Source: a virus
Taxonomy: Duplodnaviria; Heunggongvirae; Uroviricota; Caudoviricetes
Strand: one strand, 5' to 3'
IMG/VR virus record: IMGVR_UViG_2724679538_000008
Location: 1-22,421 of that record
DNA length: 22,421 bases
The notes beneath the pieces are model-generated. The model made no database searches, had not been told where the DNA came from, and worked only from the letters and a program-made list of their open reading frames with translations. The position numbers were made by a program, and so were the translations under genes. This document shows positions 1-18,604 of the stretch, piece by piece. The first letter of the stretch is position 1. Each line of letters opens with the position of its first letter.

Positions 1-1161
1 TTACCTCGCATTTAAGTAAACTACGTTCTCCTCTTGTGCCGTATTTGTGCCATTGCGACTTATAATCGCATCGATTTTGCTCGCGTGCTCGGTGAGATGC
101 CCAGCTGAAAGGTGGGCGTATCTTTGAACCATTTCGAGAGTTTCCCATCCTCCCATCTCTTTAAGTGCAAGAAGAGAGACACCGGACTGAACCAGCCAGC
201 TTGCCCAGGTATGCCTCAGGTCATGGAAGCGGAAGTTGCTAATGCCTGCCCGCTTTAACGCTCCCTTCCATGCCTTGTTGCTGTCGGTTCTCATCTTCCT
301 TACCGCTGCTGTTTTTGTTCCGTCGCTTCGGTAGGCAGGTTTGGTGTGGACAAATACCCATCTCTTATGGAGCCCCTGCTGTTTTCTTAATATCTGGCAT
401 GCGGTTTCGTTAAGAGGAACTCCGATCGCATTGCCAGCTTTTGTTTCATCAGGGTGCATCCATGCCATTTTCTTATCCAGATCGACCTGTGACCACTCAA
501 GGTCTGTAACGTTGGAACGACGAAGGCCTGTCGTGATTGCAAACATGACCACAGGGAAGAAATGAGGAGCAATTTCTGCAAACAGGCGCTTCGATTCCTC
601 CTCTGTAAGCCATCTGATTCGTCCATTCTTAACGCGTGGTGTTGATATTTTGGGCGCCCTGTCAAGCCATCCCCATTCAACAGCCATATTGAGAATAGCG
701 CGAAGTATTGCCAGATGCCGCGTCTTCGTTCCTTTGCTTGCCAGCTTTGGTTTATACTCCGGCACTGGCTTGCCAAGCCGCAAACACCTATCCCGGCTCA
801 TCTCCCAGTTCAGGCGATGGCGGCGGTTTTCCATCCCGTCTACCGCCTCCATTATTTTTTCTGTTGTTATGTCAGAGAGAATGGTTTCTCTGAAGTGCAA
901 CATCCAGAACGATATAATGCTCTTGTCATCATCAATGGACTTCTTATCCGATTTCTCACGCAGCCACCGTATGCAGGCTTCCTTGAATAGCTTTTTCGGT
1001 GATTCCCCGAGATTTTTTACTCTCCACGCTTCTGCTTTCAGACGATCGTGAAGTTCTTGCGCTTGCCTCTTGTCCGATGTTTCAAGAGAGCGTCTAACTC
1101 TTGATCCATCTGGCGCGACGAAATCGCAGTGCCATGTGCCACCGCGCAGTTTGATTGACAT
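1..1161 (-). CDS. int: Phage integrase, tyrosine recombinase
   Basis: 386-aa ORF; C-terminal catalytic region 'FHDLRHTWASWLVQSGVSLLALKEMGGWETLEMVQRYAHLS' (R..H..R..Y tyrosine recombinase signature). Stop codon at the window edge, as expected for the gene next to the attachment site. Overlapped at its 5' end by an excisionase-like ORF. Confidence 0.9.
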   Translation of the reverse strand: MSIKLRGGTWHCDFVAPDGSRVRRSLETSDKRQAQELHDRLKAEAWRVKNLGESPKKLFKEACIRWLREKSDKKSIDDDKSIISFWMLHFRETILSDITTEKIMEAVDGMENRRHRLNWEMSRDRCLRLGKPVPEYKPKLASKGTKTRHLAILRAILNMAVEWGWLDRAPKISTPRVKNGRIRWLTEEESKRLFAEIAPHFFPVVMFAITTGLRRSNVTDLEWSQVDLDKKMAWMHPDETKAGNAIGVPLNETACQILRKQQGLHKRWVFVHTKPAYRSDGTKTAAVRKMRTDSNKAWKGALKRAGISNFRFHDLRHTWASWLVQSGVSLLALKEMGGWETLEMVQRYAHLSAGHLTEHASKIDAIISRNGTNTAQEENVVYLNAR

Positions 1162-2151: not shown

Positions 2152-3216
2152 TTAAGTTGATTCCAGACTTCCTTTGGTAAAAGCTTGTATCAGTCTGTTT
2201 GCTGCTGCTTTCTGCGCTGCCACATTGGCAATAACAGATAGTTTTTCCTGGCTGGCTTTCGTGCAGATCCCCGCCCAGTTATCCATCAGAAAAAAATCCT
2301 CTCTTTCTGCAGAGCTGGTAGTTGCACATAGTTTTTCGATCATAGAAGTTATTTCTGCGATGGAATGATTAACCATCATCTGTTGAACCGCAAAACCGAA
2401 AGCGTTAATCATTACTCCATGGAACTGAATATAATCGCGCTTGTACGTAGCGTGGTGTACACCATGTCGGATTGAGTCAATCTGAGTTAGTGTAATCCAT
2501 GCCTCCCAGACAGATTCTATATATCCCATTTCAAGTTGTTGATTGCCGTTCCTAGCGAACTTTGACGTTGCATCAGTGAGTGCCTTGAAACTCACCCACA
2601 TATTACTTTTTAATGGCACTACGTTGTGTTCAAAATCGGTTATATCGGCAAATACAGTATGTTGGGTCAGGAAGGATATCATTCCCTGAGCAATATCATC
2701 CCGGCCGTTATACGCCATATTGATGGTCGCTGATGGCTTAGAAACGTTGTTATTTATGTCCGAAAAGAACTGCTGCCGGGTTTTTAGCGGCAGATTCATT
2801 GTAAGCATCATGGGAACCATGAGTGTTGATGGGGAACTTCGGCAAAATATCTCAATGCCAGCTGCACGATGTTGACCATCAAAAAGTTTTATTTCGGCGT
2901 CGAGGGGAATTCTGGCTATACCAACATTTGTGTTGCCAAACGGTACAAATTCTATATTCGAATCACAGTTACCTACGAGAGGGGGAATGATAAAAGGCTC
3001 ATTTCTTGAGTCTGCGTTAGTGAGATAATTTAAAAATTTTCGTACTCGATTTGGATTAATTTCTCGCTGAGAGCGTTCCAGTGTATGGCCGTAATTATCT
3101 GAAGCGAGGAAACGAGCCAGCGATCTTCCTGGTATGGTAAGGAAGAGTGTAACAGTACCACCCTGTACACCTTGCGATGCCGGAAATTCGAATGAATGAT
3201 TACCAACCTGACTCAT
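2152..3216 (-). CDS. DGQHR-domain protein (DndB/DpdB-like, ParB-like fold family), stand-alone
   Basis: 354-aa ORF containing the literal motif 'KLFDGQHRAAGIE' (DGQHR). Strong SD 'CAGGAGGA' 6 nt upstream of the ATG. The start overlaps the stop of an upstream 54-aa ORF (ATGA). Confidence 0.75.
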   Translation of the reverse strand: MSQVGNHSFEFPASQGVQGGTVTLFLTIPGRSLARFLASDNYGHTLERSQREINPNRVRKFLNYLTNADSRNEPFIIPPLVGNCDSNIEFVPFGNTNVGIARIPLDAEIKLFDGQHRAAGIEIFCRSSPSTLMVPMMLTMNLPLKTRQQFFSDINNNVSKPSATINMAYNGRDDIAQGMISFLTQHTVFADITDFEHNVVPLKSNMWVSFKALTDATSKFARNGNQQLEMGYIESVWEAWITLTQIDSIRHGVHHATYKRDYIQFHGVMINAFGFAVQQMMVNHSIAEITSMIEKLCATTSSAEREDFFLMDNWAGICTKASQEKLSVIANVAAQKAAANRLIQAFTKGSLEST

Positions 3217-3377
3217 ATATCCTCCTGTTTATTATTTATCTTCTCAGCCAGCCGCTGTGCTTTCAGGGGATTTCGGATAACAGAAAGGCCGGGAAATACC
3301 CAGCCTCGCTTTGTAACGGAGTAGACGAAAGTGATCGTGCCTACCCGGATATTATCGTGAGTATGCTTCATCGCCAT
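3213..3377 (-). CDS. Small hypothetical protein (54 aa) translationally coupled between exo and the DGQHR gene
   Basis: Hand-translated ORF '[54 protein letters not shown]'; below the length cut-off of the supplied ORF track. Its start overlaps the exo stop (ATGGCGATGA) and its stop overlaps the DGQHR start (ATGA). 'GGGGAG' lies upstream. Confidence 0.4.
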
Positions 3378-4048
3378 TGCTCCCCAAATACAAAACCAAT
3401 TTCAGCCAGTGCCTCGTCCATTTTTTCGATGAACTCCGGCACCATCTCGTCAAAACTCGCCATGTACTTTTCATCCCGCTCAACCACGACATAATGCAGG
3501 CCTTCACGCTTCATACGCGGGTCATAGTTGGCAAAGTACCAGGCATCTTTTCGCGTCACCCACATGCTGTACTGCACCTGGGCCATGTAAGCCGATTTTA
3601 TGGCCTCGAAACCACCGAGCCGGAACTTCATGAAATCCCGGGAGGTAAACGGGCATTTCAGTTCAAGGCCGTTGCCATCACTGCATAAACCATCGGGAGA
3701 GCAGGCGGTGCGCATACTTTCGTCGCGATAGATGATCGGGGATTCAATAACATTCACGCCGGAAGTGAACTCAAACAGGGTTCTGGCGTCGTTCTCGTAC
3801 TGTTTTCCCCAGGCCAGCGCTTTAGCGTTAACTTCCGGAGCCACACCGGTGCAAACCTCAGCCAGCAGGGTGTGGAAGTAGGACATTTTCATGTCAGGCC
3901 ATTTCTTTCCGGATCGGGGTTTTGCTATCACGTTGTGAACTTCTGAAGCTGTAATGACGCCGAGCCGTAATTTGTGCCACGCATCATCCCCCTGTTCGAC
4001 AGCTCTCACGTCGATCCCGGTACGCTGCAGTATAATGTCCGGTGTCAT
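3368..4048 (-). CDS. exo: Lambda exonuclease (Red-alpha, 5'-3' dsDNA exonuclease)
   Basis: 226-aa protein near-identical, from memory, to lambda Exo ('[65 protein letters not shown]...'). Start overlaps the bet stop. Confidence 0.97.
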
Positions 4049-4830
4049 GCTGCCACCTTCTGCTCAGTGGCTTTCTGTTTCAGGAATCCAAGAGCTTTCA
4101 CTGCTTCGGCCTGTGTCAGTTCTGACGATGCGCGAATGTCGCGGCGAAATATCTGGGAACAGAGCGGCAATAAGTCGTCATCCCATGTTTTATCCAGGGC
4201 GATCAGCAGAGTGTTAATCTCCTGCATGGTTTCATCGTTAACCGGAGTGATGTCGCGTTCCGGCTGACGTTCTGCAGTGTATGCGGTATTTTCGACAATG
4301 CGCTCGGCTTCATCCTTGTCATAGATACCCGCAAATCCGAAGGCCAGACGGGCACACTGAATCATGGCTTTATGCCGTAACATCCGTTTGGGATGCGACT
4401 GCCACGGCCCCGTGATTTCTCTGCCTTCGCGGGTTTTGAATGGTTCGCGGCGGCATTCATCCATCCACTCGGTAACGCAGATCGGATGATTACGGTCCTT
4501 GCGGTAAATCCGGCATGTGCAGGATTCATTGTCCTGCTCAAAGTCCATGCCATCAAACTGCTGGTTTTCATTGATGATACGGGACCAGCCATCAACGCCC
4601 ACCACCGGAACGATGCCGTTCTGCTTGTCAGGGAAGGCGTAAATTTCTTTCGTCCACGGATTAAGGCCGTATTGGTTGGCGACGATCAGCAATGCGATGA
4701 ACTGCGCATCGCTGGCATCGCCTTTAAATGCTGTCTGGCGAAGAGTGGTGATCAGTTCCTGTGGGTCGACAGAATCCATGCCGACACGTTCAGCCAGCTT
4801 CCCAGCCAGCGTTGCGAGTGCTGTACTCAT
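4045..4830 (-). CDS. bet: Red-beta single-strand annealing protein
   Basis: 261-aa protein matching lambda Beta ('[68 protein letters not shown]...'). Position between gam and exo. Confidence 0.97.
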
Positions 4831-4835
4831 CCGTT

Positions 4836-5132
4836 TTATACCTCTGAATCAATATCAACCTGGTGGTGAGCAATGGTTTCAACCATGTACCGGATGTGTT
4901 CTGCCATGCGCTCCTGAAACTCAACATCGTCATCAAACGCACGGGTAATGGCTTTTTTGCTGGCCCCGTGGCGTTGCAAATGATCGATGCATAGCGATTC
5001 AAACAGGTGCTGGGGCAGGCCTTTTTCCATGTCGTCTGCCAGTTCTGCCTCTTTCTCTTCATGGGCGATCTGCTGGTAGTGACGCGCCCAGCTCTGAGCC
5101 TCAAGACGATCCTGAATGTAATAAGCGTTCAT
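4836..5132 (-). CDS. gam: Gam, RecBCD inhibitor (short GamS-length form only)
   Basis: 98-aa ORF '[60 protein letters not shown]...VDIDSEV' matching lambda Gam from its internal Met. The in-frame upstream region is closed by a stop about 19 codons upstream. Confidence 0.93.
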
Positions 5133-5207
5133 GGCTGAACTCCTGAAAATGGCTGTGAAAATATCGCCCGCGAAATGCCAGGCTGATTAGGTAAACAGGA
5201 AAGGGGA

Positions 5208-5618
5208 TTAGTGATTCAGACCGTTACCGCGCCCGTCGAGAAAAACTTCCACGAGCAAGTCACGGGTATAAGTGCGCTCGATGCCGCGATGCAGATAAAG
5301 CCGTCCGCGTAAATTAGCTGATGCGGTCCAGGTACCATCTTTGTGTTTGACCAGCATTCCTGGCATGACCGCACCGCGATTAACGGTCTGCGTTCCGTAA
5401 TGTTGATGAACCATAAAAACTCCTGCCCGTAAGCTGGGCTGCTGAACATATAAAGACTTCTGCGCGTATTCAGGCGGTGGATGGCCGCCGGTTGTCATAA
5501 CTAAGTCGCCTCGTTGAAGCAACTGAGGTATGAAGTGTTGAGTTGATTTCAGCTGGTCACACCGACGTTCACGCGTCCGCTTCACCCCTCGCACTCCCCG
5601 GAGCCTGCTGAAATTCAA
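5208..5618 (-). CDS. Hypothetical protein in the N / early-left position (start uncertain)
   Basis: 136-aa frame if the TTG at 5618 is used, giving an arginine-rich N-terminus 'RLRGVRGVKRTRERR'. The first ATG is at 5498 (97 aa, 'MTTGGHPPPEY...'). Lies between the candidate OL/pL region and gam. No family recognised. Confidence 0.4.
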   Translation of the reverse strand: MNFSRLRGVRGVKRTRERRCDQLKSTQHFIPQLLQRGDLVMTTGGHPPPEYAQKSLYVQQPSLRAGVFMVHQHYGTQTVNRGAVMPGMLVKHKDGTWTASANLRGRLYLHRGIERTYTRDLLVEVFLDGRGNGLNH

Positions 5619-5702
5619 GCTGCGGATCTAAGCGGTCATCGCAACGGTGAATCAGGTGGTTGCCGTATCGTTGTGTTGTTGCGATGAACTCATTTAAAAC
5701 TA

Positions 5703-5766
5703 TAGTTGTTTTATCGTCAACAACAAAAGTTGTTTTATTGGTTTTTTTAGATATAACTGGTTGTAT
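5703..5766. promoter_or_regulatory. Candidate OL/pL operator region (GTTGTT/AACAAC half-sites)
   Basis: 'tAGTTGTTttatcgtcAACAACaaaAGTTGTTttattGGTTttt...ctGGTTGTAttt' has repeated half-sites identical to those of the palindrome in the cI-cro intergenic region. Sits at the lambda OL position between the N-position ORF and the rex-position gene. Confidence 0.45.
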
Positions 5767-5894
5767 TTAGGATGGATTTATTTTGTGACTTGAATCGCAT
5801 AGCGATAACTGAAGGGAGGTTGTGGTGGTTTTTTGAACGGTTTGTGTGATGAGGGGAGGCAAAAGAAAACCCGGCACGGTGGCCGGGGTGGGAT

Positions 5895-6743
5895 TTATGC
5901 TGATTTTTTAGTATGTCTACTATTATATTTTTCTAGCAGATCTGCTAACTGATCTTCTTTTGGTGGTCTAGGGAGATTGTTTCTTACATTGCTTCGCTTC
6001 TGAGCTTCAGCTATTCGATCACCAAAGTATCTTTTGAAGATCTCGTATTCTGCACAGTTTTCCGGATCTACATCATAAAATGATAACTTGCCGTAAATTG
6101 CACAAAACCAGTCAGCGCATTGAATTGTTTGGTATAGTTTACTGTCTACTTGTACAGGGGCTTCAAGCAATTGATACTTCTCTTCTTGATGCATTTCATA
6201 GATTGCTTCTTTAACAATCTCGCTTCTCATTTCATGATCGTCCATGAAAATCAAGAATTGAGCATCTTGATTTTTGAACTCATTGTCTAGCCGTTTTATT
6301 ACTTCTTTAAAGCTTGATTTATAAGTTCGTTGAGGGTTATGAGATGCAACACCAATGCGTTTAGCTTCTCCTACGTAGAAAAGAAAGCCGCCATAACGAG
6401 TAATAGTGTTAATTATTCTGTTTGTGCTTCTTGTTAAGTATTTTTTGTACTGTGTTAAATTTTTTACAGAATACTGTTTGGAACCTTTTTTCTCCCAACA
6501 TGACAACTGGAAACGCTCGCCCTTAGCTTGTGCCTTTCTTCTGGCTTCTGGTATGTCATAAGAACCGAACAGTTGTTGCTTATGCTTGAAGAAGAAATGA
6601 GAAAAATCTCTTACTCTATTGGCTGGTAGGACGAATCCACCAAGCCCAAAAACTGGATGTGTATTATGCTGAGGATGTTTCTTGGAAATGTACGGGCCAT
6701 CATGACCAAACTCATCCAAGTAAACTATGAATATATTTGACAT
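5895..6743 (-). CDS. DUF3800-like protein in the rexAB position (downstream of cI, same strand)
   Basis: ORF track 5895..6758; the likely start is the second ATG (6743), preceded by 'GGGGCAAGG', giving 'MSNIFIVYLDEFGHDG...'. The N-terminal '[IV]Y[IL]DE.G' type start is what I recall for DUF3800. AT-rich relative to the flanking lambda genes. Confidence 0.5.
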   Translation of the reverse strand: MSNIFIVYLDEFGHDGPYISKKHPQHNTHPVFGLGGFVLPANRVRDFSHFFFKHKQQLFGSYDIPEARRKAQAKGERFQLSCWEKKGSKQYSVKNLTQYKKYLTRSTNRIINTITRYGGFLFYVGEAKRIGVASHNPQRTYKSSFKEVIKRLDNEFKNQDAQFLIFMDDHEMRSEIVKEAIYEMHQEEKYQLLEAPVQVDSKLYQTIQCADWFCAIYGKLSFYDVDPENCAEYEIFKRYFGDRIAEAQKRSNVRNNLPRPPKEDQLADLLEKYNSRHTKKSA

Positions 6744-6916
6744 TACCTTGCCCCACATACACGGAAGCCCGACTTAAAAAAGCCGGGCCCCGGAATCAGC
6801 AGCAGAAGAAGGTTAAATCTCCCGCCTCTTGTGTTTAAGTATCAGAGAATGTCATCAAAAAGTCAATATGTGTTATGGGAAAATATTACTCAAATACCTC
6901 ATCAGAACACGGCTGA

Positions 6917-7606
6917 TTATCCGTGTTTCCTATACGTCTGCGGCATACTGCCAATAACCTTCCCGAAGATAAACACTCGGTTCATCTCGTCTTTCTCGAT
7001 CGGGTCCCACGGTGAGTAGCTCTTGTTATCAGAGATGACCAGCAGCTTATCCTTCATCATTTGCAGGCGCTTTACATGGGCTGTGTCGTCGTACAGAAAC
7101 GCATAGATACCATCACCGTCGAAAGATTTAACAGTGATATCAACGAACAGCAGATCACCTGGTTCGATCGTTCCTGACATGCTGTCACCACGCACGTTAA
7201 TGATGCGGATATTTTCCGCCTTCCTACCATCGAACATGTGACGAGCATCGTCAAATGAGTACTCAACCGAGCGTAGAACTTCTACAAACTCACGGTTGAT
7301 GACTCCCGGCCCAGCACTGACTTCTATATCAAGAACGTCAATCTTGAAGTATTTGGAATGGCTGACAGTTGATTGTATTGGTTGCACTGTACTGTCTGAC
7401 ATATTTCCAACGCCAGAAGATAACCATTCTGCGCGCACACCCAAAGCGTTCGCGATCTCCACGATTTTAGTTGTTTGGTTAGCTTTCCCTGTTTCGATTT
7501 TCTGAATAGCAGCCTGGCTAACCCCAACCAAATCCCCAAGTGCCTTTTGTGTAAGGCCTCGCGCTAATCTGGCTTCTTTAAGTCTTTCTGAGAGTGTTGT
7601 TTTCAT
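6917..7606 (-). CDS. cI: CI-like prophage repressor (HTH_XRE N-domain + S24/LexA-like peptidase C-domain)
   Basis: 'MKTTLSERLKEARLARGLTQKALGDLVGVSQAAIQKIETGK' HTH followed by a C-terminal region with '...VRGDSMSGTIEPGDLLFVD...' (S24 Ser/Lys autocleavage-type domain). ORF track starts at 7672; the Met at 7606 gives the canonical N-terminus. Divergent from the cro-like gene. Confidence 0.85.
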   Translation of the reverse strand: MKTTLSERLKEARLARGLTQKALGDLVGVSQAAIQKIETGKANQTTKIVEIANALGVRAEWLSSGVGNMSDSTVQPIQSTVSHSKYFKIDVLDIEVSAGPGVINREFVEVLRSVEYSFDDARHMFDGRKAENIRIINVRGDSMSGTIEPGDLLFVDITVKSFDGDGIYAFLYDDTAHVKRLQMMKDKLLVISDNKSYSPWDPIEKDEMNRVFIFGKVIGSMPQTYRKHG

Positions 7607-7647
7607 AGACCAAATGTACAACCAAGGTTTTATTCCATCAAACGAAA

Positions 7648-7672
7648 ATGGTTGTTGACTAAAAACAACCAT
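7648..7672. promoter_or_regulatory. OR-type operator palindrome within the cI-cro divergent promoter region
   Basis: Perfect inverted repeat ATGGTTGTT-gactaaa-AACAACCAT. It overlaps a TTGACT -35-like hexamer (7652-7657) facing cro. A further GGTTGTT lies at 7704-7710, next to the cro RBS. Confidence 0.55.
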
Positions 7673-7710
7673 AGTTTTAATCTTGATTCAGATTAACCAC
7701 GGAGGTTGTT

Positions 7711-7941
7711 ATGAACCCAGCAATCAAAACAGCGATCAATATAGTTGGTTCACAAAAGAAACTGGGCGATGCCTGCGAAGTTTCACAGCAGGCCGTCTAT
7801 AAGTGGCTTCACAACAAAGCAAAGGTATCCCCTGAACATGTCGGCAGCATTGTTACGGCTACTGGTGGAGTTGTGAAGGCATACCAGATTCGCCCGGATC
7901 TTCCGAAGTTGTTTCCACACACCGAAAAGAACGCAGCTTAA
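7711..7941 (+). CDS. cro: Cro-like HTH regulator (YdaS/Cro family)
   Basis: 76-aa protein with HTH 'KKLGDACEVSQQAVYKWLHNKAKVS'. SD 'GGAGG' upstream. Divergent from cI across the operator region. Confidence 0.7.
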   Translation: MNPAIKTAINIVGSQKKLGDACEVSQQAVYKWLHNKAKVSPEHVGSIVTATGGVVKAYQIRPDLPKLFPHTEKNAA

Positions 7942-7953
7942 ATTTCCATTTCA

Positions 7954-7999
7954 CGCTCTTTAACAATAAGCAATCAACTTAACAGACTGATTAACAGTC
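7954..7999 (+). promoter_or_regulatory. nutR-like site: boxA followed by a boxB-like hairpin
   Basis: 'CGCTCTTTAACAA' (7954-7966) matches the boxA consensus. It is followed 18 nt later by GACTG-attaa-CAGTC (7985-7999), a 5-bp stem with a 5-nt loop like lambda boxB. Located just downstream of cro, as nutR is in lambda. Confidence 0.5.
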
Positions 8000-8022
8000 A
8001 ATTCAAACTAAAGGAATCAATT

Positions 8023-8562
8023 ATGCAACCAATTACATACCAACAGACTAGCGGATTTACCCCGACTGCGGTGATAAATCGTTCTCAAACAAAACAGGCG
8101 CCAGGCCACGAAAAAATCCGTGATGCCGTTCGCGCCTGGTCGGCTGCAGATAATCAGGATGTTGTTGCCGCACTCATTGTGAATGAGTATCGGGAGCAGG
8201 GCGGCGGCACCATCGATTTCCCTGATGATGTCAGCCGTGCACGCCAGAAGCTGTTCCGCTTCCTCGATAACAAATTCGATTCTGAAAAATACCGAAATAA
8301 CGTGCGTGAACTGACCCCGGCAATTCTGGCGGTTCTACCGCTGGAATATCGCGGCCACCTGGTTGAGCAGGATAGCTTCATGGCTCGGCTGGCTGAAATG
8401 GAAAAGGAACTCAGTGAGGCAAAACAGGCTGTCATTCTCAACGCACCACGCCACCAGAAACTGAAGGAGATGAGTGAAGGCATTGTGTCGATGTTTCGTG
8501 TGGACCCAGATTTGGCTGGTCCACTGATGGCGATGGTCACCACCATGCTGGGGGCAATATGA
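8023..8562 (+). CDS. CII-position regulator, YdaT-like
   Basis: 179-aa ORF immediately after cro and the nutR-like site. Segments 'VVAALIVNEYREQGGGTIDF' and 'LTPAILAVLPLEYRGHL' resemble the Rac-prophage YdaT family as I recall it. Stop overlaps the downstream start (ATGA). Confidence 0.5.
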   Translation: MQPITYQQTSGFTPTAVINRSQTKQAPGHEKIRDAVRAWSAADNQDVVAALIVNEYREQGGGTIDFPDDVSRARQKLFRFLDNKFDSEKYRNNVRELTPAILAVLPLEYRGHLVEQDSFMARLAEMEKELSEAKQAVILNAPRHQKLKEMSEGIVSMFRVDPDLAGPLMAMVTTMLGAI

Positions 8563-8648
8563 CAGGTTCGGAAATGGCGAAAGCCGGTCTGCGGGAACAG
8601 AGCCGACTTTCAGGTGCAAATCGTAACGCACTCATTGCGGAAGGAATT

Positions 8649-9578
8649 ATGGCAAACACTGCTGAGATATTCAATTTTCCAGTGCCGGATGAGGCACAAA
8701 AGGAGCGGCGCGTGGCAGATCTCGATGATGGTTATACGCGCATTGCAAATGAGTTGCTGGAAGCTGTGATGCTGGCCGGATTAACACAGCACCAGCTTCT
8801 GGTCTTTCTGGCTGTCATGCGCAAAACATATGGCTTTAATAAAAAACTGGATTGGGTTAGCAACGAGCAACTTTCCGAATTAACCGGGATATTGCCGCAC
8901 AAGTGTTCTGCTGCAAAAAGTGTTCTGGTAAAGCGTGGGATTTTTATTCAGAGCGGGCGGAATACCGGCATTAATAATGTGGTCAGTGAATGGTCAACAT
9001 TACCCGAATCAGGTAAGAAAAATAAAGTTTACCTGAAAGAGGTAAATTTACCTGAATCAGGTAAAAAAAGTTTACCCAAATCAGGTAAAGGCGTTTACCC
9101 GAATCAGGTAAACACAAAAGACAAACTAACAAAAGACAATATAAAACCTTTTTCGTCCGAGAATTCTGGCGAATCCTCTGACCAACCAGAAAACGATCTT
9201 CCTGTGGTGAAACCGGATGCTGCAATTCAGAGCGGCAGCAAGTGGGGGACAGCAGAAGACCTGACCGCCGCAGAGTGGATGTTTGACATGGTGAAGACCA
9301 TCGCGCCATCAGCCAGAAAACCGAATTTTGCAGGGTGGGCTAATGATATCCGCCTGATGCGTGAACGTGACGGACGTAACCACCGCGACATGTGCGTGCT
9401 GTTCCGCTGGGCATGCCAGGACAACTTCTGGTCCGGTAACGTGCTAAGTCCGGCCAAACTCCGCGACAAGTGGACCCAACTCGAAATCAACCGTAACAAG
9501 CAACAGGCAGGCGTGACAGCTAGCAAACCAAAACTCGACCTGACAAACACAGACTGGATTTACGGGGTGGATCTATGA
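8649..9578 (+). CDS. O: Replication initiator protein O (lambda O-like), contains the origin
   Basis: 'MANTAEIFNFPVPDEAQKERRVADLDDGYTRIANELLEAVMLAGLTQHQLLVFLAVMRKTYGFNK...' parallels the lambda O N-terminal domain. Iterons and an AT-rich stretch lie inside the gene. The ORF is open from 8559 (ATGA-coupled to the upstream gene), so the true start may be 8559 or 8649. Confidence 0.88.
   Translation: MANTAEIFNFPVPDEAQKERRVADLDDGYTRIANELLEAVMLAGLTQHQLLVFLAVMRKTYGFNKKLDWVSNEQLSELTGILPHKCSAAKSVLVKRGIFIQSGRNTGINNVVSEWSTLPESGKKNKVYLKEVNLPESGKKSLPKSGKGVYPNQVNTKDKLTKDNIKPFSSENSGESSDQPENDLPVVKPDAAIQSGSKWGTAEDLTAAEWMFDMVKTIAPSARKPNFAGWANDIRLMRERDGRNHRDMCVLFRWACQDNFWSGNVLSPAKLRDKWTQLEINRNKQQAGVTASKPKLDLTNTDWIYGVDL
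8998..9113 (+). repeat. Origin iterons (about five copies of a ~19-bp TTTACCnGAATCAGGTAAA-like repeat)
   Basis: Copies at about 9001-9016, 9028-9046, 9047-9065, 9071-9089 and 9094-9112, each internally palindromic (TTTACC...GGTAAA), followed by an A/T-rich tract (9113-9160). This is the lambda ori architecture inside O; the repeats encode the 'PESGKK'-type linker. Confidence 0.8.
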
Positions 9579-10276
9579 AAAACATCGCCGCACAGATGAT
9601 TAACTTTGACCGTGAGCAGATGCGTCGGATCGCCAACAACATGCCGGAACAGTACGACGAAAAGCCGCAGGTACAGCAGGTAGCGCAGATAATCAACGGT
9701 GTATTCAGCCAGTTACTGGCAACTTTCCCGGCGAGCCTGGCTAATCGTGACCAGAACGAACTGAACGAAATCCGCCGCCAGTGGGTTCTGGCTTTCCGGG
9801 AAAACGGGATCACCACGATGGAACAGGTGAGCGCCGGAATGCGTGTTGCCCGTCGGCAGAATAGACCATTTCTGCCATCACCCGGGCAGTTTGTTGCATG
9901 GTGCCGGGAAGAAGCATCCGTTACCGCCGGGCTGCCAAACGTCAGCGAGCTGGTTGATATTGTTTACGAGTATTGCCGGAAGCGTGGTCTGTATCCGGAT
10001 GCAGAGTCTTATCCGTGGAAATCAAACGCGCACTACTGGCTGGTTACCAACCTGTATCAGAACATGCGGGCCAATGCGTTGACTGACGCGGAATTACGGC
10101 GCAAGGCTGCCGATGAACTGTCCTGTATGACCGCGCGAATTAACCGTGGTGAGGCGATACCTGAACCAGTAAAACAACTTCCTGTCATGGGCGGTAGACC
10201 TCTAAATCGTGCACAGGCTCTGGCGAAGATCGCAGAAATCAAAGCTAAGTTTGGGCTGAAAGGAGCAAGTGTATGA
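9575..10276 (+). CDS. P: Replication protein P (DnaB helicase loader)
   Basis: 233-aa protein near-identical, from memory, to lambda P ('MKNIAAQMINFDREQMRRIANNMPEQYDEKPQVQQVAQIINGVFSQLLATFPASLANRDQNE...KFGLKGASV'). Start overlaps the O stop. Confidence 0.97.
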   Translation: MKNIAAQMINFDREQMRRIANNMPEQYDEKPQVQQVAQIINGVFSQLLATFPASLANRDQNELNEIRRQWVLAFRENGITTMEQVSAGMRVARRQNRPFLPSPGQFVAWCREEASVTAGLPNVSELVDIVYEYCRKRGLYPDAESYPWKSNAHYWLVTNLYQNMRANALTDAELRRKAADELSCMTARINRGEAIPEPVKQLPVMGGRPLNRAQALAKIAEIKAKFGLKGASV

Positions 10277-10560
10277 CGGGCAAAGAGGCAATTATTCATT
10301 ACCTGGGGACTCATAAGAACTTCTGTGCGCAGGACGTTGCCGCGGTAACAGGCGCAACCGTAACCAGCATAAATCAGGCTGCGGCTAAAATGGCGCGGGC
10401 AGGAATCCTGGTCGTTGATGGTAAGGTCTGGCGAACGGTGTATTATCGGTTCGCTACCAGAGAAGAATGGGAAGGAAAGGTGAGCACGAATTTGATTTTT
10501 AAGGAGTGTCGTCAAAGTGCCGCGATGAAGCGGGTGTTGGCTTTATATGGAAGAGAGTAG
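10273..10560 (+). CDS. ren: Ren (Rex-exclusion protein)
   Basis: 95-aa protein matching lambda Ren ('MTGKEAIIHYLGTHKNFCAQDVAAVTGATVTSINQAAAKMARAGILVVDGKVWRTVYYRFATREE...'). Start overlaps the P stop. Confidence 0.93.
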   Translation: MTGKEAIIHYLGTHKNFCAQDVAAVTGATVTSINQAAAKMARAGILVVDGKVWRTVYYRFATREEWEGKVSTNLIFKECRQSAAMKRVLALYGRE

Positions 10561-10930: not shown

Positions 10931-12349
10931 TTAGAAAATAATGTTTGCTATATCCGAGATAGCATTTAAAGAACCTCTGTGGTCACTTCCTGTTTTAGGT
11001 AAAATATAGGAATATCGAGGGTCTTCATTATATGTTAACTTCCAGTGTTTTCCATCGCTTGACGCACTGAAACCTAAGTCCTTTAAATTTCTTTGTGTTG
11101 CGCTATCCATGCTTCTGTAACCTGTTAAAGTCCTTTTAAGTAATTGGCGGCGACTCTCGGTTTCTTTATTGTATTCATTATTGGCAATTAGGGATGATAA
11201 GATATGGTAGCTTCTACCAAATTCATTTTTATTTTTTATGGCAGTTTTTAGTGCGTCAATAATTATATTTTTGATTTCTCCATCAAAAAAGTCAGTCTCT
11301 TCACCAGCATTAAGCACAATGCTTCCTTGGGCTGAAGCTTGTGATTGAAGAGTGCGTACTCTGTGCTCTAAAGAGGAGATCTTATGCTTAAGATCTTCTA
11401 TTTGGTCATCTTTCGCAACATTATCGGCTTCGTAAAGCGCCATCAGTTCGCGTGTGTATTCTCCTCTTTCTTTGAGTGAGTTAATAGAGTCTTTCGTTTT
11501 TCTGGTTTGTATCTCACTCCATCCACTATCTGAGACAGGAGCCATTGTAGTCGTAGCTCTTACAACATCATCAAATAACTCATCTTCAAATTCTTTTGCG
11601 GTTTTCTCACCACGGCGATAAAAACTGATATTTTGACCCCGTGGCCAATAGATACCAACAGCACCAGCATAGGCATTTTTAGCATTTGTCTCATTTTTTA
11701 GCTTAATAGAAAATAGTCTATTGCTAGGCTCAATTAATACATGTGCTAATCCGCATACCTTTCTTGCAAGGCGTTCTGGGATGATATTGTGAGCATGTTC
11801 ATTAAAAAAATACTTGGAGCTAACGTATATTATTGGTAGTCTGTTGTCAGTTTCACCATTTATAACTTTAGCTGCTATATTTAAATGTTCATCAGTATCA
11901 TCTAAGGAATGAGGTTCGACTGACACCTTGAAAATATCATCAAGACCACCAGAAAATTTATCAATCAATCTCATAACAACTAATGGTTTCTTAGGTTGCG
12001 GGGCTAGATAAGCTGCATCTTGGCTTACAACGCTAGATTCCACCTGAATCCACATGGTATCAGTTTTGAGATTTTTATTAATTGAAATATCTGTTACCCA
12101 TTTGTGTGGCTCAGATATTTTCGAATACCTAAAACAGCCTAAACTAGTATCTTTGTTTTTATAAGTTATTATATCAATTCTTTCATTTTTAGACTCTATG
12201 AAGTACTCCTCGCTTTTATAATCACATACTAATTGTGCTGGAATAAAAGTTGTATGTGGTGAGTCGTTTACCCAAGAAAAACATTCATTAAAGATCTCAG
12301 CTAGAGATGTGGAGTTTGAAACATAAAAACCAGTTGAGAAATATTTCAT
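10931..12349 (-). CDS. Large orphan protein (472 aa), AT-rich, no recognisable domain
   Basis: Long uninterrupted ORF on the strand opposite to the early-right operon. Visibly lower GC than the flanking lambda genes. Central predicted coiled-coil ('ELMALYEADNVAKDDQIEDLKHKISSLEHRVRTLQSQ'). No Walker A or other motif I can name. Confidence 0.7.
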   Translation of the reverse strand: MKYFSTGFYVSNSTSLAEIFNECFSWVNDSPHTTFIPAQLVCDYKSEEYFIESKNERIDIITYKNKDTSLGCFRYSKISEPHKWVTDISINKNLKTDTMWIQVESSVVSQDAAYLAPQPKKPLVVMRLIDKFSGGLDDIFKVSVEPHSLDDTDEHLNIAAKVINGETDNRLPIIYVSSKYFFNEHAHNIIPERLARKVCGLAHVLIEPSNRLFSIKLKNETNAKNAYAGAVGIYWPRGQNISFYRRGEKTAKEFEDELFDDVVRATTTMAPVSDSGWSEIQTRKTKDSINSLKERGEYTRELMALYEADNVAKDDQIEDLKHKISSLEHRVRTLQSQASAQGSIVLNAGEETDFFDGEIKNIIIDALKTAIKNKNEFGRSYHILSSLIANNEYNKETESRRQLLKRTLTGYRSMDSATQRNLKDLGFSASSDGKHWKLTYNEDPRYSYILPKTGSDHRGSLNAISDIANIIF

Positions 12350-16578: not shown

Positions 16579-17103
16579 TTATTGTTTAACCCATAATAAT
16601 TCATTGACATTGAATCCCAACTTTTGAGCGGTTCGCACATAGTCTGCTTTTACTTTATCTGGAATAGTTGGGGTCCTTGCCAGAATCCATAGGTATTCTC
16701 TGTTCGGACCACTGACAAGAGCATACTTATACTCATCATCCAGTTTGATTACATTATAGCCACCATAGAAGGGGCCAAAAAACGAAACCTTCAACGCTGC
16801 AGTTTTAGTATCTCCAGTAAAGTATGCTTTACCTTCGCTCTCGCTCCATTTATTTTTCGTTGGATCGTATCCACGGTTAAGTACACGAATCCCTCCGTCG
16901 TTCCGTTTTCCATAAGTAGCGCTGACCTGTTCCAGACCACGTTCGAACCGGTTCTCGAGGCGAGCTATTTCATACCATTTTCCGAGGTAGCGGTTGGCGT
17001 CAAAATTTGTAATCGGCTGCACACCTTTAGGTGGTGTCGGGGCCTTACATGCTATAAGAGTGAAAGAGAGTGCAATGCCAGTCAACACAGGCCATAACTT
17101 CAT
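16579..17103 (-). CDS. Bacterial lipocalin (Blc-like outer-membrane lipoprotein)
   Basis: 174-aa protein with signal peptide and lipobox 'LIAC'. 'FDANRYLGKWYEIARLENRFERGLEQVSATY...GKAYFTGDTKTAALKVSFFGPFYGGYNVIKLD...YLWILARTPT' closely parallels E. coli Blc. Confidence 0.85.
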   Translation of the reverse strand: MKLWPVLTGIALSFTLIACKAPTPPKGVQPITNFDANRYLGKWYEIARLENRFERGLEQVSATYGKRNDGGIRVLNRGYDPTKNKWSESEGKAYFTGDTKTAALKVSFFGPFYGGYNVIKLDDEYKYALVSGPNREYLWILARTPTIPDKVKADYVRTAQKLGFNVNELLWVKQ

Positions 17104-17295
17104 AATAAATCCTGTACTTTTGATAGTTGAGAGTAAGTATGAAAGATAGATGATTACGACCGATCACTTAAAGAACTTTCATACTATATTAGGAATAGTC
17201 CATAACAGAAAAATTGTCAGTGATGACGCCAGAAAGGCAATTTATTCCGTGCACTACACAGTTTATGTGTTAATGAATTAGTCAAGGGGGAGAAT

Positions 17296-18255
17296 ATGAT
17301 AAAAAAACCTGTGATTGGAATCAGCGGTTGTTTGGCCGGTTCTGCTGTTCGTTTTGATGGTGGTCACAAAAGAGCTGACTTTTTAATGGACAAATTAGTG
17401 GAATGGGTAACATTCAGACCAGTATGTCCAGAAATGGCTATAGGGCTGCCAGTTCCGCGTCCTGCTCTACGTCTTGTGCGCTCGACGCAAGGAAATATAC
17501 GGATGTGTTTCAGCCACGACCAGAATGAGGATGTGACAGAGAGAATGACAGAGTTTAGTCGTTCTTATATGGACAAATTAAAGGATGTATCGGGGTTTGT
17601 GGTTTGTGCTAAATCTCCCAGCTGTGGCATGGAGCGCGTGCGTGTCTATGATGAAAATGGTAATCGAGGTCGTAAAGATGGAGTGGGACTATTTACGAGC
17701 ACTTTGATGGAAAAGTTTTCCTGGCTACCGGTTGAAGAGGATGGGCGATTACATGATCCAGTGCTTCGTGAGAATTTTGTTGAAAGAGTTTTTGCTTTGC
17801 ATGAGCTCAATCATCTTTACAAGGAGAAATTATCAAGAAGAGAGTTATTAGCTTTTCATAGTCGTTATAAGCTTCAGTTATTGGCGCATAGTCAGGCAGG
17901 CTATAAAGATATGGGACCATTTGTGGCTGCAATACACGAGTGGGCGGACCTTGAATCATACTTTGAGGTGTATCGTGATAAGCTGATGGCGATTCTCAGA
18001 AAACCTGCATCACGTAAAAATCACACGAATGTGCTGATGCATATACAGGGGTATTTTAGTAACTACTTAAGTACACGCCAGCGTAAAGAGTTGAGCGAGG
18101 TTATACTTAACTATCGTTCTGGCACATTACCTCTTCTTGCGCCGTTGACTCTGCTGAAGCATTATCTGGGTGAGTATCCTAATGATTACTTGCTTACACA
18201 GAATTACTTCGATCCCTATCCGGACGAACTGGCTCTAAGACTGATGGTAAATTAA
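17296..18255 (+). CDS. DUF523 (TudS/YbgA-like, Cys-rich) + DUF1722 two-domain protein
   Basis: N-terminus 'KPVIGISGCLAGSAVRFDGGHKRADFL...PVCPE...CAKSPSCGME' resembles YbgA/DUF523, which I recall as the TudS 4Fe-4S thiouracil desulfidase family. The C-terminal helical half is consistent with DUF1722. SD 'AAGGGGGAG' upstream. Confidence 0.6.
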   Translation: MIKKPVIGISGCLAGSAVRFDGGHKRADFLMDKLVEWVTFRPVCPEMAIGLPVPRPALRLVRSTQGNIRMCFSHDQNEDVTERMTEFSRSYMDKLKDVSGFVVCAKSPSCGMERVRVYDENGNRGRKDGVGLFTSTLMEKFSWLPVEEDGRLHDPVLRENFVERVFALHELNHLYKEKLSRRELLAFHSRYKLQLLAHSQAGYKDMGPFVAAIHEWADLESYFEVYRDKLMAILRKPASRKNHTNVLMHIQGYFSNYLSTRQRKELSEVILNYRSGTLPLLAPLTLLKHYLGEYPNDYLLTQNYFDPYPDELALRLMVN

Positions 18256-18604
18256 TTGTATGCGATATCATCCAAAAGGATAAGTTCCTGCATGCAGGAT
18301 ATTTACAATCGTAAAAACTACACTATGATACCCAGAGTGTCAGTTTGTATAAAAACTCTGTTTACGCTGAAGAAACCATTGAGATGCAACTTAAAGTTGG
18401 TAAACATGCCAGTCAAAATATAATATTATGATTCCACGCAGCTATATATAATATAACAGATTGGTTTAATAATTTGTCTTTGTGAGTTAAATACATAATT
18501 TTATACTTGTGATGCAATGAGATTTTCCTTATTGTTGAACTGGCGAATATTGATTTTCCACCTATACTTACCTGGTGTAACCCCAATGATATCAGGTGGA
18601 TAAT

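What the first reader, a model, noticed from the sequence alone, without database searches (positions are those of the whole stretch)
5895..6916. DUF3800-like gene occupies the rexAB slot downstream of cI
In lambda the genes immediately downstream of cI on the same strand are rexA and rexB, lysogen-expressed exclusion genes transcribed from PRM. Here that slot holds a single AT-rich 282-aa gene whose N-terminus ('MSNIFIVYLDEFGHDG') resembles the DUF3800 family as I recall it. Position and composition argue that it is a horizontally acquired, lysogen-expressed moron and a candidate superinfection-exclusion or defence gene. The cI to gene spacer contains a GC-rich palindrome with a T-run on the minus strand (about 6772-6798). 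This could attenuate read-through from cI.
Basis: partly seen in the sequence, partly recalled or inferred. Interest (0 to 1): 0.65.

Follow-up and report, generated by a model that had tools for sequence, protein, structure and literature searches.

The report
Prophage RNase-H-like gene with RNA leader
In the lambda rexAB position, downstream of the cI repressor, this E. coli prophage carries a self-contained cassette (own promoter, a conserved two-hairpin leader RNA, an uncharacterised RNase-H-like DUF3800 nuclease); the leader accompanies this gene across many bacterial phyla and matches no Rfam 15 family, which gives a tractable E. coli system for an RNA-protein pairing of unknown function.

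Summary
A 282-aa, AT-rich ORF (5895-6743, minus strand) is a bona fide Pfam DUF3800 protein and lies between cI and an OL/PL-like operator, which is the rexAB slot. This slot is a swap site: 2,214 of 5,426 complete E. coli genomes share the flanks, but only 5 carry this cargo. Sibling phages carry PADLOC defence-candidate pairs there, or nothing.

The "GC-rich palindrome with T-run" is not an attenuator of cI read-through. It is stem P2 of an ~80-nt two-hairpin leader that starts 2-6 nt after a near-consensus sigma-70 promoter and ends at the Shine-Dalgarno sequence. The leader travels with the gene: it is present at 78/80 genome loci from many phyla (80/80 by eye) and 23/27 viral contigs. It shows strong compensatory covariation and ten-fold sense-strand wobble bias. 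It is not coding and matches no Rfam 15 family.

The protein models confidently (pLDDT 93) as a distant RNase HII/H2-like fold with invariant acidic residues.

Best reading: an autonomous, lysogen-expressed promoter-leader-nuclease module in which the leader is a cis operator or RNA partner of the nuclease. Anti-phage function is plausible from context but untested.

The parts
6917..7606 (-). cI-type repressor (HTH_3 + Peptidase_S24). It forms the upstream border of the slot. The longer 251-aa ORF that runs to 7672 overlaps the OR palindrome.
   Evidence: Pfam; PHROG 4; RefSeq start; right homology breakpoint at the cI stop.
6867..6916 (-). Short junction between the cI stop and the cassette promoter. 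It is partly shared with one sibling (L003, shared down to 6884). No terminator was detected here, so PRM transcripts should read through into the cassette.
6838..6866 (-). The cassette's own sigma-70-type promoter: -35 TTGACT (6866-6861), 17-nt spacer, -10 GATACT (6843-6838). Predicted transcription start about 6832-6830.
   Evidence: An equivalent promoter (at least 9/12 matches) is present in 63/82 distinct relatives against 9% of shuffles, with the -10 ending 2-6 nt before the leader in 54/63.
6752..6833 (-). Conserved structured 5' leader RNA. P1 hairpin 6829-6798. Junction AUUC 6796-6793. Conserved tail GUGUAUG 6761-6755, running into SD GGGG 6754-6751.
   Evidence: Covariance-model hit, 88 bits; covariation; alignment-free P1 test; wobble strand bias; no Rfam match.
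5895..6743 (-). DUF3800 protein, 282 aa, RNase HII/H2-like fold. Invariant D10, H14, E84, K86, D168, E194, Q208, D211; E11 nearly invariant.
5860..5887 (-). Intrinsic terminator (CCCGGCCACCGTGCCGGG + TTTTCTTTT), in the position of lambda tIMM. It is shared by all slot variants and forms the left recombination border. A near-identical terminator follows the cassette in L007 and L101.
5705..5724 (.). OL-like operator palindrome overlapping a leftward -35 TTGACG (5720-5715). It marks the far side of the slot. This is context, not part of the cassette.

Best explanation
The slot holds an autonomous, horizontally exchanged cassette of about 1 kb: promoter, ~80-nt two-hairpin leader RNA, DUF3800 nuclease gene, terminator. 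It replaced whatever lay between the cI stop codon and the shared tIMM-like terminator, by recombination at those conserved borders.

In a lysogen it would be transcribed from its own constitutive sigma-70 promoter, and additionally by read-through from PRM. The leader forms a 5'-terminal hairpin (P1) and a second hairpin (P2). The invariant base of P2, a bulged U and the 3' tail abut the ribosome-binding site.

I propose the leader is the cis-acting RNA partner of the protein it precedes. DUF3800 would bind the P2 base and tail to control its own translation and/or be held in check by the RNA. The protein would be a metal-dependent RNase HII-like nuclease (D10-E11...D168...Q208xxD211) that attacks nucleic acid of superinfecting phage.

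Shown: the anatomy, the mobility, the RNA structure and its linkage to the gene, and the fold.
Inferred: protein-leader binding, nuclease activity and substrate, and the defence role.
For: Cassette and slot:
- Breakpoints lie at 5887 and 6917.
- PhiR34_1 has an empty slot holding an unrelated 121-nt spacer, and the cassette ends have no terminal or target-site repeats.
- 5 of 5,426 genomes carry the cassette, against 2,214 with the flanks.
- Homology to relatives in unrelated contexts starts at the leader (6829-6843) and ends at the terminator.

Promoter.

Leader RNA:
- A model built from 9 gammaproteobacterial sequences hits directly upstream, on the sense strand, at 78/80 loci from Cyanobacteria, Acidobacteriota, Gemmatimonadota, Alpha/Beta/Gamma-proteobacteria, Dehalococcoidia and others. 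The two misses carry the element by eye. It also hits 23/27 viral contigs, Acinetobacter plasmids and an Aeromonas P2-like prophage.
- 93.6% of cells pair, against 41-46% in slid registers. 22/25 pairs have double-sided changes. There are 309 compensatory cells against 15-53 in slid registers. 0/500 shuffles reach these values.
- A structure-blind MAFFT alignment recovers the lower 9 pairs of P2 with compensatory swaps.
- P1 folds as a single hairpin in 74/76 sequences, median z -2.86.
- 216 G-U against 22 A-C cells.
- Lengths mod 3 are 26/29/23, and in-frame stops occur in 33/78, so it is not coding.
- The distance to the start codon is fixed, and the tail merges into the SD.

Protein:
- pLDDT 93.4.
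- The acidic residues are invariant.
- The literature also calls DUF3800 an RNase H fold (PMC7736814, PMC10910872, PMC12669027).

Defence-type context:
- Same-strand placement after six different S24 repressors in viral contigs and in Proteus.
- An accessory position between the replication genes and ogr/portal of a P2-like prophage, and TA-rich plasmids.
- Sibling cargo matches PADLOC candidates.
- rexAB and bstA set a precedent for this interval.
Against: - There is no experimental evidence that the gene is expressed, that the protein binds the leader, that it is a nuclease, or that it affects phage.
- No hit to any PADLOC v2 model, retron VII included.
- Structural similarity to RNase H2 is distant (Foldseek TM 0.41-0.50, no hit at E <= 0.001). 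I could not inspect the model coordinates, so clustering of the catalytic residues is inferred from motif order only.
- Some family members are lone chromosomal genes among housekeeping genes, so a role outside phage conflict is possible.
- The pair statistics come partly from a model-fitted alignment, although three independent controls agree.
- Covariance-model E-values are rough.
Confidence: 0.5

Rival explanations
1. One reading: the GC-rich hairpin in the cI-gene spacer is a partial terminator that attenuates PRM read-through, and the gene depends on cI transcription.
For: A stable hairpin exists (-17.8 kcal/mol for 6805-6765). Family-wide, 53% of copies have at least 5 U in 8 nt after the upper P2 stem, so some attenuation of any transcript that crosses it is conceivable.
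Against: The window copy has only 4/8 U and the scan does not flag it. In the window copy the T-run is the loop. The hairpin is conserved with the gene where no cI lies upstream. It sits downstream of the cassette's own promoter. The interruptions C4, G5 and G7 in the tail are invariant, which is unlike a plain U-tract.
Confidence: 0.08
2. A type III toxin-antitoxin-like abortive-infection module. The strong promoter makes abundant short leader RNA, which partly terminates at P2. This RNA binds and neutralises the DUF3800 nuclease made from rarer read-through transcripts. Phage-induced transcription shut-off or RNA decay then frees the nuclease.
For: The architecture (promoter, structured RNA, terminator-like hairpin, nuclease gene) resembles ToxIN; that comparison rests on my own knowledge. 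The RNA and gene are strictly linked in cis. P2 is terminator-like in 53% of copies. Neighbours include TA genes on plasmids. The module resides on prophages and plasmids.
Against: The leader has no tandem repeats, which are the hallmark of ToxI, CptI and TenpI. The window copy has a weak U tail. The fixed spacing to the SD points to translational control in cis. No toxicity data exist.
Confidence: 0.2
3. The leader is a riboswitch or sensor RNA that responds to a small molecule or an infection signal rather than to the DUF3800 protein.
For: Unpaired and helix-base nucleotides are deeply conserved across phyla, and the element sits in a 5' UTR next to the SD.
Against: It has only two simple hairpins with variable loops and no multi-helix junction. 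I did not test for a pseudoknot. No consistent alternative pairing that sequesters the SD was seen on inspection (inference). The only factor co-inherited across phyla, phages and plasmids is the protein itself.
Confidence: 0.08
4. The module has no anti-phage role. It could be a selfish stabilisation element or a nucleic-acid housekeeping nuclease (for example, removing RNA-DNA hybrids) that merely hitch-hikes in permissive moron slots. In that case the leader would be only a 5' stabiliser and translation tuner.
For: A lone chromosomal copy sits among housekeeping genes. No defence-database hit. 5'-terminal hairpins are known mRNA stabilisers (own knowledge).
Against: The module is repeatedly captured in lysogeny-expressed or defence-type slots of unrelated phages. 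Other DUF3800 proteins are embedded in retron VII and Cas12a2/a3 immune loci. The sequence-specific conservation of the leader goes well beyond what a stabiliser hairpin needs.
Confidence: 0.14

Closest known systems
Cargo of the cI-N interval of lambdoid phages: lambda rexAB and Salmonella BTP1 bstA
   Same: Same genomic position and strand (downstream of cI, before OL/PL, ending at a tIMM-like terminator). The interval is a known mosaic hotspot that holds lysogen-expressed Abi genes (PMC8585504). BstA also has a functional element that spans the region immediately upstream of its start codon.
   Different: No sequence or fold relation to RexA/RexB or BstA; the only significant Pfam hit is DUF3800. 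The upstream element here is a covarying RNA structure with its own promoter, whereas aba appears to be DNA-based.
DUF3800-associated RNA motifs (DUF3800-I to -XI, drum, skipping-rope; Weinberg et al. 2017, PMC5737381)
   Same: A conserved structured RNA physically linked to a DUF3800 gene, of unknown function. Some of those motifs are followed by terminators.
   Different: No Rfam 15 family matches this leader, at gathering scores (23 loci) or at permissive E-values (the window and 10 more loci). Rfam 15 does contain DUF3800-I and DUF3800-IX. The described motifs lie on either side of the gene and in either orientation and are rarely in 5' UTRs. This one is always a sense-strand 5' leader that abuts the SD.
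Retron type VII (RT + msr/msd + DUF3800; Mestre et al. 2020, PMC7736814)
   Same: A DUF3800 RNase-H2-like protein working next to a structured ncRNA in an MGE-borne immune context. The N-terminal DE motif is shared.
   Different: No reverse transcriptase lies nearby and PADLOC gives no hit. This subfamily keeps the QxxD motif and the DEDD acidic set. The retron proteins lack the Q and are DEED.
TPR-DUF3800 accessory proteins of Cas12a2/a3 loci, also reported for some VI-F loci (PMC10910872; PMC12669027; bioRxiv 10.64898/2026.01.16.699850)
   Same: A DUF3800 RNase-H-fold nuclease recruited to an RNA-centred immune system.
   Different: No TPR domain, no cas genes, no CRISPR array. This is a stand-alone single gene with its own leader.
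RNase HII/H2/HIII (type 2 RNase H)
   Different: About 10-13% identity, TM 0.4-0.5, and no sequence-level hit to any PDB chain or to an RNase H Pfam model. There are extra helical insertions. The substrate is unknown.
Type III toxin-antitoxin systems (ToxIN, CptIN, TenpIN)
   Same: The same order: promoter, structured RNA, hairpin, nuclease gene. Carried on MGEs with Abi logic (own knowledge).
   Different: No tandem RNA repeats. The toxin fold differs. Toxicity is untested.

Membership tests
Pfam DUF3800 (PF12686) | Profile score above the curated gathering cut-off | tested here: met
   59.1 bits against 21, E 1.1e-15, profile positions 1-145 of 149. All 100 homologues carry PF12686.
Pfam DUF3800 (PF12686) | N-terminal DE motif and C-terminal QxxD motif | tested here: met
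   D10 invariant, E11 at least 90%, Q208 and D211 invariant in 56 sequences. Motif definition from PMC7736814.
Type 2 RNase H (HII/H2/HIII) | RNase H fold with best structural matches to type 2 enzymes | tested here: met
Type 2 RNase H (HII/H2/HIII) | Sequence-level family membership and a DEDD site assembled in 3D | tested here: inconclusive
   No PDB sequence hit and no RNase H Pfam hit.
Retron type VII | Adjacent retron reverse transcriptase and msr/msd ncRNA, with a DUF3800 of the retron clade | tested here: not met
   No RT among the neighbouring genes. No PADLOC hit at E <= 1. No Rfam retron or RT motif.
Known or candidate anti-phage systems (PADLOC-DB v2.0.0) | Match to any system model | tested here: not met
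   0 families at E <= 1. Sibling cargoes in the same slot do match PDC-M11 and PDC-M63.
Lambda RexAB / slot cargo | Position between cI and OL/PL on the cI strand | tested here: met
   cI upstream. Operator palindromes only at 5705-5724 and 7651-7669. Shared terminator at 5887-5860.
Lambda RexAB / slot cargo | Homology to RexA/RexB | tested here: not met
   Only DUF3800 is significant in Pfam. NCBIfam and PADLOC give nothing.
Rfam DUF3800-I...XI, drum and skipping-rope RNA motifs | Covariance-model match | tested here: not met
   No such family at gathering score (23 loci) or at permissive E-values (window at E <= 5 and E <= 10; 10 loci at E <= 1). Only DUF3800-I and -IX are verified to be in the Rfam copy. 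The Weinberg supplement is not held.
Intrinsic (Rho-independent) terminator / attenuator | GC-rich stem followed directly by a U-rich tail | tested here: not met
   The window hairpin is not flagged. It has 4 of 8 U after the upper P2 stem. Family-wide, 53% reach 5 of 8.
Type III toxin-antitoxin | Tandem repeats of antitoxin RNA upstream of the toxin gene | tested here: not met
   TRF finds no repeats in 6650-6950 at score 30.
Type III toxin-antitoxin | Toxicity of the protein that is neutralised by the RNA | not testable with these tools
   Needs expression experiments.
Structured cis-regulatory leader RNA | Conserved secondary structure supported by covariation, on the sense strand, at a fixed position in the 5' UTR | tested here: met

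The most novel reading that the evidence does not exclude
This DUF3800 subfamily and its leader form a new class of two-component (RNA + RNase-H-like nuclease) immune or abortive-infection module. The cis-encoded structured RNA would be the nuclease's regulator or antitoxin (like a type III TA system but without repeats) or its specificity cofactor. That would also explain why at least a dozen unrelated structured RNAs are found next to DUF3800 genes across bacteria and archaea.
Probability: 0.25. Interest if true: 0.8.

Novelty: new variant of a known kind. Interest (0 to 1): 0.6.

Why it matters
DUF3800 is a widespread RNase-H-fold family that keeps appearing in immune contexts (retron VII, Cas12a2/a3 loci) and next to many different structured RNAs. 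No function is reported in the literature I could search, and Weinberg et al. (2017) had "no specific hypothesis" for these RNAs.

This work adds three things:
- One subfamily has a strictly co-inherited, covarying 5' leader RNA. The subfamily comprises 434 loci among 185,579 species genomes and 487 clusters at E <= 1e-10 among 1.84 billion representatives.
- The promoter-leader-gene unit is mobile and repeatedly lands in lysogeny-expressed slots of unrelated phages.
- A copy sits in a lambda-like prophage of E. coli, where prophage genetics, phage panels and RNA biochemistry are routine.

Together these turn an eight-year-old RNA-protein association into a directly testable system. They also correct the intuitive reading of the spacer hairpin as a cI attenuator.

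Tried and rejected
- Rfam, five scans at gathering and permissive thresholds: no family matches the leader.
- PADLOC and NCBIfam on the protein: nothing.
- PDB sequence search with the family profile: only noise.
- Terminator reading of the hairpin: rejected for the window copy.
- Coding explanation for leader conservation (N-terminal extension): rejected. Lengths are spread evenly mod 3, in-frame stops are common, and the pattern is covariation. Some gene callers do translate the core as 'FRGP'.
- DNA-palindrome or operator explanation: rejected by the ten-fold G-U over A-C bias and the freely covarying stems.
- Transposon-like insertion: no terminal repeats or target duplications, and the empty site holds unrelated sequence, so this is replacement by recombination.
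- Tandem repeats as in type III TA systems: none.
- A conserved alternative pairing that would sequester the SD: none found on inspection.
- Literature search for GevT/GevA: uninformative. The Weinberg supplement is not held. No functional follow-up of drum, skipping-rope or DUF3800-I was found.
- I first assumed the window equals the E. coli JL05 prophage at tRNA-Arg. That was wrong beyond 3221-10286: the window is mosaic and contains no tRNA. I therefore make no claim about the integration site.
- Model coordinates are not exposed, so active-site distances could not be measured.
Full report
1. THE OBSERVATION

The window carries a lambdoid early region. A cI-type repressor (HTH_3 + Peptidase_S24) lies at 6917-7606/7672 on the minus strand. 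It is divergent from a Cro/YdaS-type gene (7711-7941) and a YdaT-type gene, followed by O/P-like replication genes.

Immediately downstream of cI, on the same strand, is an ORF at 5895-6743 of 282 aa beginning MSNIFIVYLDEFGHDG. It scores 59.1 bits against Pfam DUF3800 (cut-off 21; E 1.1e-15) and 443 bits against the function-unknown PHROG 26069. It has no hit in PADLOC v2 or NCBIfam. RefSeq already labels the identical gene 'DUF3800 domain-containing protein'.

ORF GC is 0.367, against 0.464 for cI and 0.508 for the left flank.

The operator-type palindrome GTTGTT-N6-9-AACAAC occurs only twice in 22.4 kb (0.02 expected). One copy is between cI and cro (7651-7669). The other is at 5705-5724, overlapping a leftward TTGACG -35, just past the terminator that follows the gene. 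The gene therefore occupies the rexAB position exactly.

2. THE SLOT IS A SWAP SITE

Of 5,426 complete E. coli genomes, 2,214 contain the flanks, but only 5 contain this cargo, all at 100% identity.

Homology to sibling phages stops at 6917 (the cI stop codon) and resumes at 5887, the first base of the terminator stem CCCGGCCACCGTGCCGGG-TTTTCTTTT.

Between these borders, siblings carry different content:
- PhiR47_2 carries a pair annotated GevT/GevA, which matches PADLOC PDC-M11A/B.
- PhiR30_1 carries a pair that matches PDC-M63A/B.
- PhiR26_1 carries a putative lipoprotein.
- SW07099 carries two hypothetical genes.
- PhiR34_1 carries only an unrelated 121-nt spacer.

The cassette ends have no terminal or target-site repeats. 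The cargo is therefore exchanged by recombination at conserved borders. Owen et al. (PMC8585504) describe this cI-N interval as a mosaic hotspot that holds rexAB in lambda and the Abi gene bstA in BTP1.

3. THE 'PALINDROME' IS PART OF A CONSERVED LEADER RNA

The spacer is not generic. Upstream of homologues in Enterobacter, Serratia, Proteus, Marinomonas, Vibrio, Gallibacterium and Haemophilus, in quite different contexts, the same arrangement recurs. There is a near-consensus sigma-70 promoter, then CAGAGGC...[hairpin]...GCUGCUGAUUCCGGGGC[hairpin]GCUUCCGUGUAUUU, then the SD and AUG.

RNAalifold on nine sequences predicts two hairpins. 11 of 25 pairs show double-sided compensation.

A covariance model built from those nine sequences hits directly upstream of the gene, on the sense strand, at 78 of 80 loci drawn from one genome per species. 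These loci span Cyanobacteria, Acidobacteriota, Gemmatimonadota, Alpha-, Beta- and Gamma-proteobacteria, Thermodesulfobacteriota, Dehalococcoidia and others. The two misses contain the element by eye. The model also hits 23 of 27 IMG/VR contigs, Acinetobacter plasmids and an Aeromonas P2-like prophage. It is absent only from relatives at about 25-36% identity.

The universal core is [P1, variable length]-UUC-CGAGGCCCG...CGGGCU(U)UUCG-UGUUUyU-GGAG.

On the 85 distinct aligned sequences:
- 93.6% of cells form standard pairs, against 41-46% when the 3' partners are slid.
- 22 of 25 pairs have double-sided changes.
- There are 309 compensatory cells, against 15-53 in slid registers.
- No shuffle out of 500 reaches these values.

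That alignment is fitted to the model, so I added three independent controls:
- A plain MAFFT alignment recovers the lower nine pairs of P2 with A-U/G-C, G-C/A-U and C-G/U-A swaps.
- P1 segments folded singly give a single hairpin in 74/76 cases, median z -2.86.
- G-U cells outnumber A-C cells 216 to 22, so the fold belongs to the sense strand.

The element is not coding. Its lengths fall evenly across the three residue classes mod 3, and 33/78 loci have in-frame stops.

No Rfam 15 family matches at any threshold tried, although DUF3800-I and DUF3800-IX are in that release.

In the window (minus strand):
- -35: 6866-6861
- -10: 6843-6838
- P1: 6829-6798
- junction: 6796-6793
- P2: 6792-6762 (loop 6779-6776)
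- tail: 6761-6755
- SD GGGG: 6754-6751
- AUG: 6743

4. OWN PROMOTER; NOT A cI ATTENUATOR

A promoter matching at least 9/12 consensus positions is present in 63/82 distinct upstream regions, against 9% of shuffles. P1 is therefore the 5' end of the module's own transcript.

Nucleotide homology between the window cassette and relatives in other contexts begins at 6829-6843 and ends at 5854-5886. The conserved mobile unit is leader + ORF (+ terminator).

The terminator scan does not flag P2 in the window. After the upper P2 stem the window has 4 U in 8 nt. Family-wide, only 53% of copies reach the lax threshold of 5, and the interrupting C, G and G are invariant.

The attenuation-of-cI-read-through idea is therefore not supported. 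PRM read-through into the cassette is still likely, because no terminator separates cI from it.

5. THE PROTEIN

56 homologues share invariant D10, H14, E84, K86, D168, E194, Q208 and D211. E11 is conserved in at least 90%. This is the DE...QxxD signature described for DUF3800.

AlphaFold2 gives pLDDT 93.4 and pTM 0.87.

The protein is therefore a distant RNase HII-like fold with an apparently intact acidic site. The substrate is unknown. The profile finds 487 clusters at E <= 1e-10 among 1.84 billion representatives.

6. CONTEXT ELSEWHERE

The module is always a single gene in an accessory position:
- Directly after S24 repressors in Proteus prophages and in three viral contigs.
- One gene removed from an S24 repressor (KilA-N, Bro-N or HTH gene between) in three more viral contigs.
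- Beside an Arc/antirepressor region inside a tail cluster.
- At prophage ends after tail fibres.
- Between the replication genes and ogr/portal of an Aeromonas P2-like prophage.
- About 400 nt from a C4 antisense RNA immunity element in Pseudomonas.
- On small Rep3 plasmids among TA genes.
- On 20 plasmids of diverse genera.
- Occasionally alone in a chromosome.

7. MECHANISM

Shown: an autonomous promoter-leader-nuclease-terminator unit, mobile among lysogeny-expressed slots, with an RNA structure under strong purifying and compensatory selection that ends at the ribosome-binding site.

Inferred: the only factor co-inherited with the RNA across phyla and replicons is the protein. The conserved nucleotides sit at the P2 base, the bulged U and the tail next to the SD. 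The most economical model is that DUF3800 binds its own leader, giving translational autoregulation and/or restraint of the nuclease, and that the nuclease acts on invading nucleic acid.

A type III TA-like variant is the most interesting alternative: a short leader RNA acting as antitoxin. It lacks the defining RNA repeats.

The papers searched hold no functional data on any DUF3800 protein.

8. NOVELTY AND VERDICT

The gene itself is an annotated member of a known but uncharacterised family, sitting in a known hotspot. By itself that is only a modest finding.

The undescribed part is the leader: a widespread, strongly covarying RNA element tied to one DUF3800 subfamily. It extends the unexplained DUF3800-RNA association of Weinberg et al. 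2017 to a strict 5'-UTR arrangement and into E. coli lambda-type prophages.

I cannot exclude that it equals one of the 2017 motifs missing from my Rfam copy, because the supplement is not held.

I rate it a new variant of a known kind, with interest 0.6.

Noticed in passing
window 2152-3216 (-): A solitary DndB-like gene (Pfam DndB 3.8e-46; PADLOC DndB 4.3e-37) sits in the early-left region between the integrase and exo/bet/gam. The other dnd genes do not appear to be nearby.
   Followed up: partly
window 10931-12349 (-): An AT-rich (GC about 0.32-0.38) 472-aa ORF lies downstream of the replication genes. It has no Pfam domain and only a weak PADLOC HEC-07 hit (1e-9). This may be a second accessory or defence-type moron in the nin region.
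   Followed up: partly
window 16579-19336: An AT-rich cargo block encodes a lipocalin (Blc-like), a 2-thiouracil desulfurase/DUF1722 protein and an AraC-family regulator. In E. coli JL05, about 1 kb of the corresponding late region holds a porin gene instead.
   Followed up: partly
window 6758 (alternative ATG) and proteins P0001, P0072, P0081, P0093: Gene callers sometimes extend the DUF3800 ORF into the leader. The 287-aa form is one case; others carry N-terminal extensions that translate the core UUCCGAGGCCC as 'FRGP'. These extensions are annotation artefacts of the conserved RNA.
   Followed up: yes
window 5860-5887; L007 5846-5880; L101 about 4845-4887: The tIMM-like terminator that forms the left border of the E. 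coli slot is nearly identical to the terminator that follows the cassette in Enterobacter (at a prophage end after the tail fibres) and in an IMG/VR contig. The terminator may therefore travel with the cassette or serve as the recombination joint.
   Followed up: partly
L002 2795-4223; L006 2799-4153 (sibling phages PhiR47_2 and PhiR30_1): The same cI-downstream slot holds two-gene cargoes that match PADLOC phage-defence candidates PDC-M11A/B (annotated GevT/GevA; the B component has an ASCH domain) and PDC-M63A/B (the A component is DUF6932).
   Followed up: partly
L059 3447-3614 (-), Pseudomonas mosselii: A C4 antisense RNA and its a1/b1 targets (a P1/P7-type immunity element) lie about 400 nt upstream of a DUF3800 module. 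This is another immunity-region placement.
   Followed up: no
L115 1836-3797 (IMG/VR contig): An AAA_21/AAA_15 (AbiEii/OLD-like) ATPase and a 158-aa protein of unknown family sit directly upstream of a leader + DUF3800 module on the same strand. This may be a multi-gene defence cluster.
   Followed up: no
window 7606-7672: The longest cI ORF (251 aa, starting at 7672) overlaps the OR palindrome at 7648-7672. RefSeq starts cI at 7606 (229 aa), which is more plausible.
   Followed up: partly
window 1-22421, compared with NZ_CP049936 (JL05): The window is mosaic relative to the JL05 prophage. It is 98% identical over 3221-10286 but only 84-96% identical or unmatched elsewhere. It starts inside an integrase gene (1-1161, minus strand) and contains no tRNA, so the integration site cannot be read from it.
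   Followed up: yes
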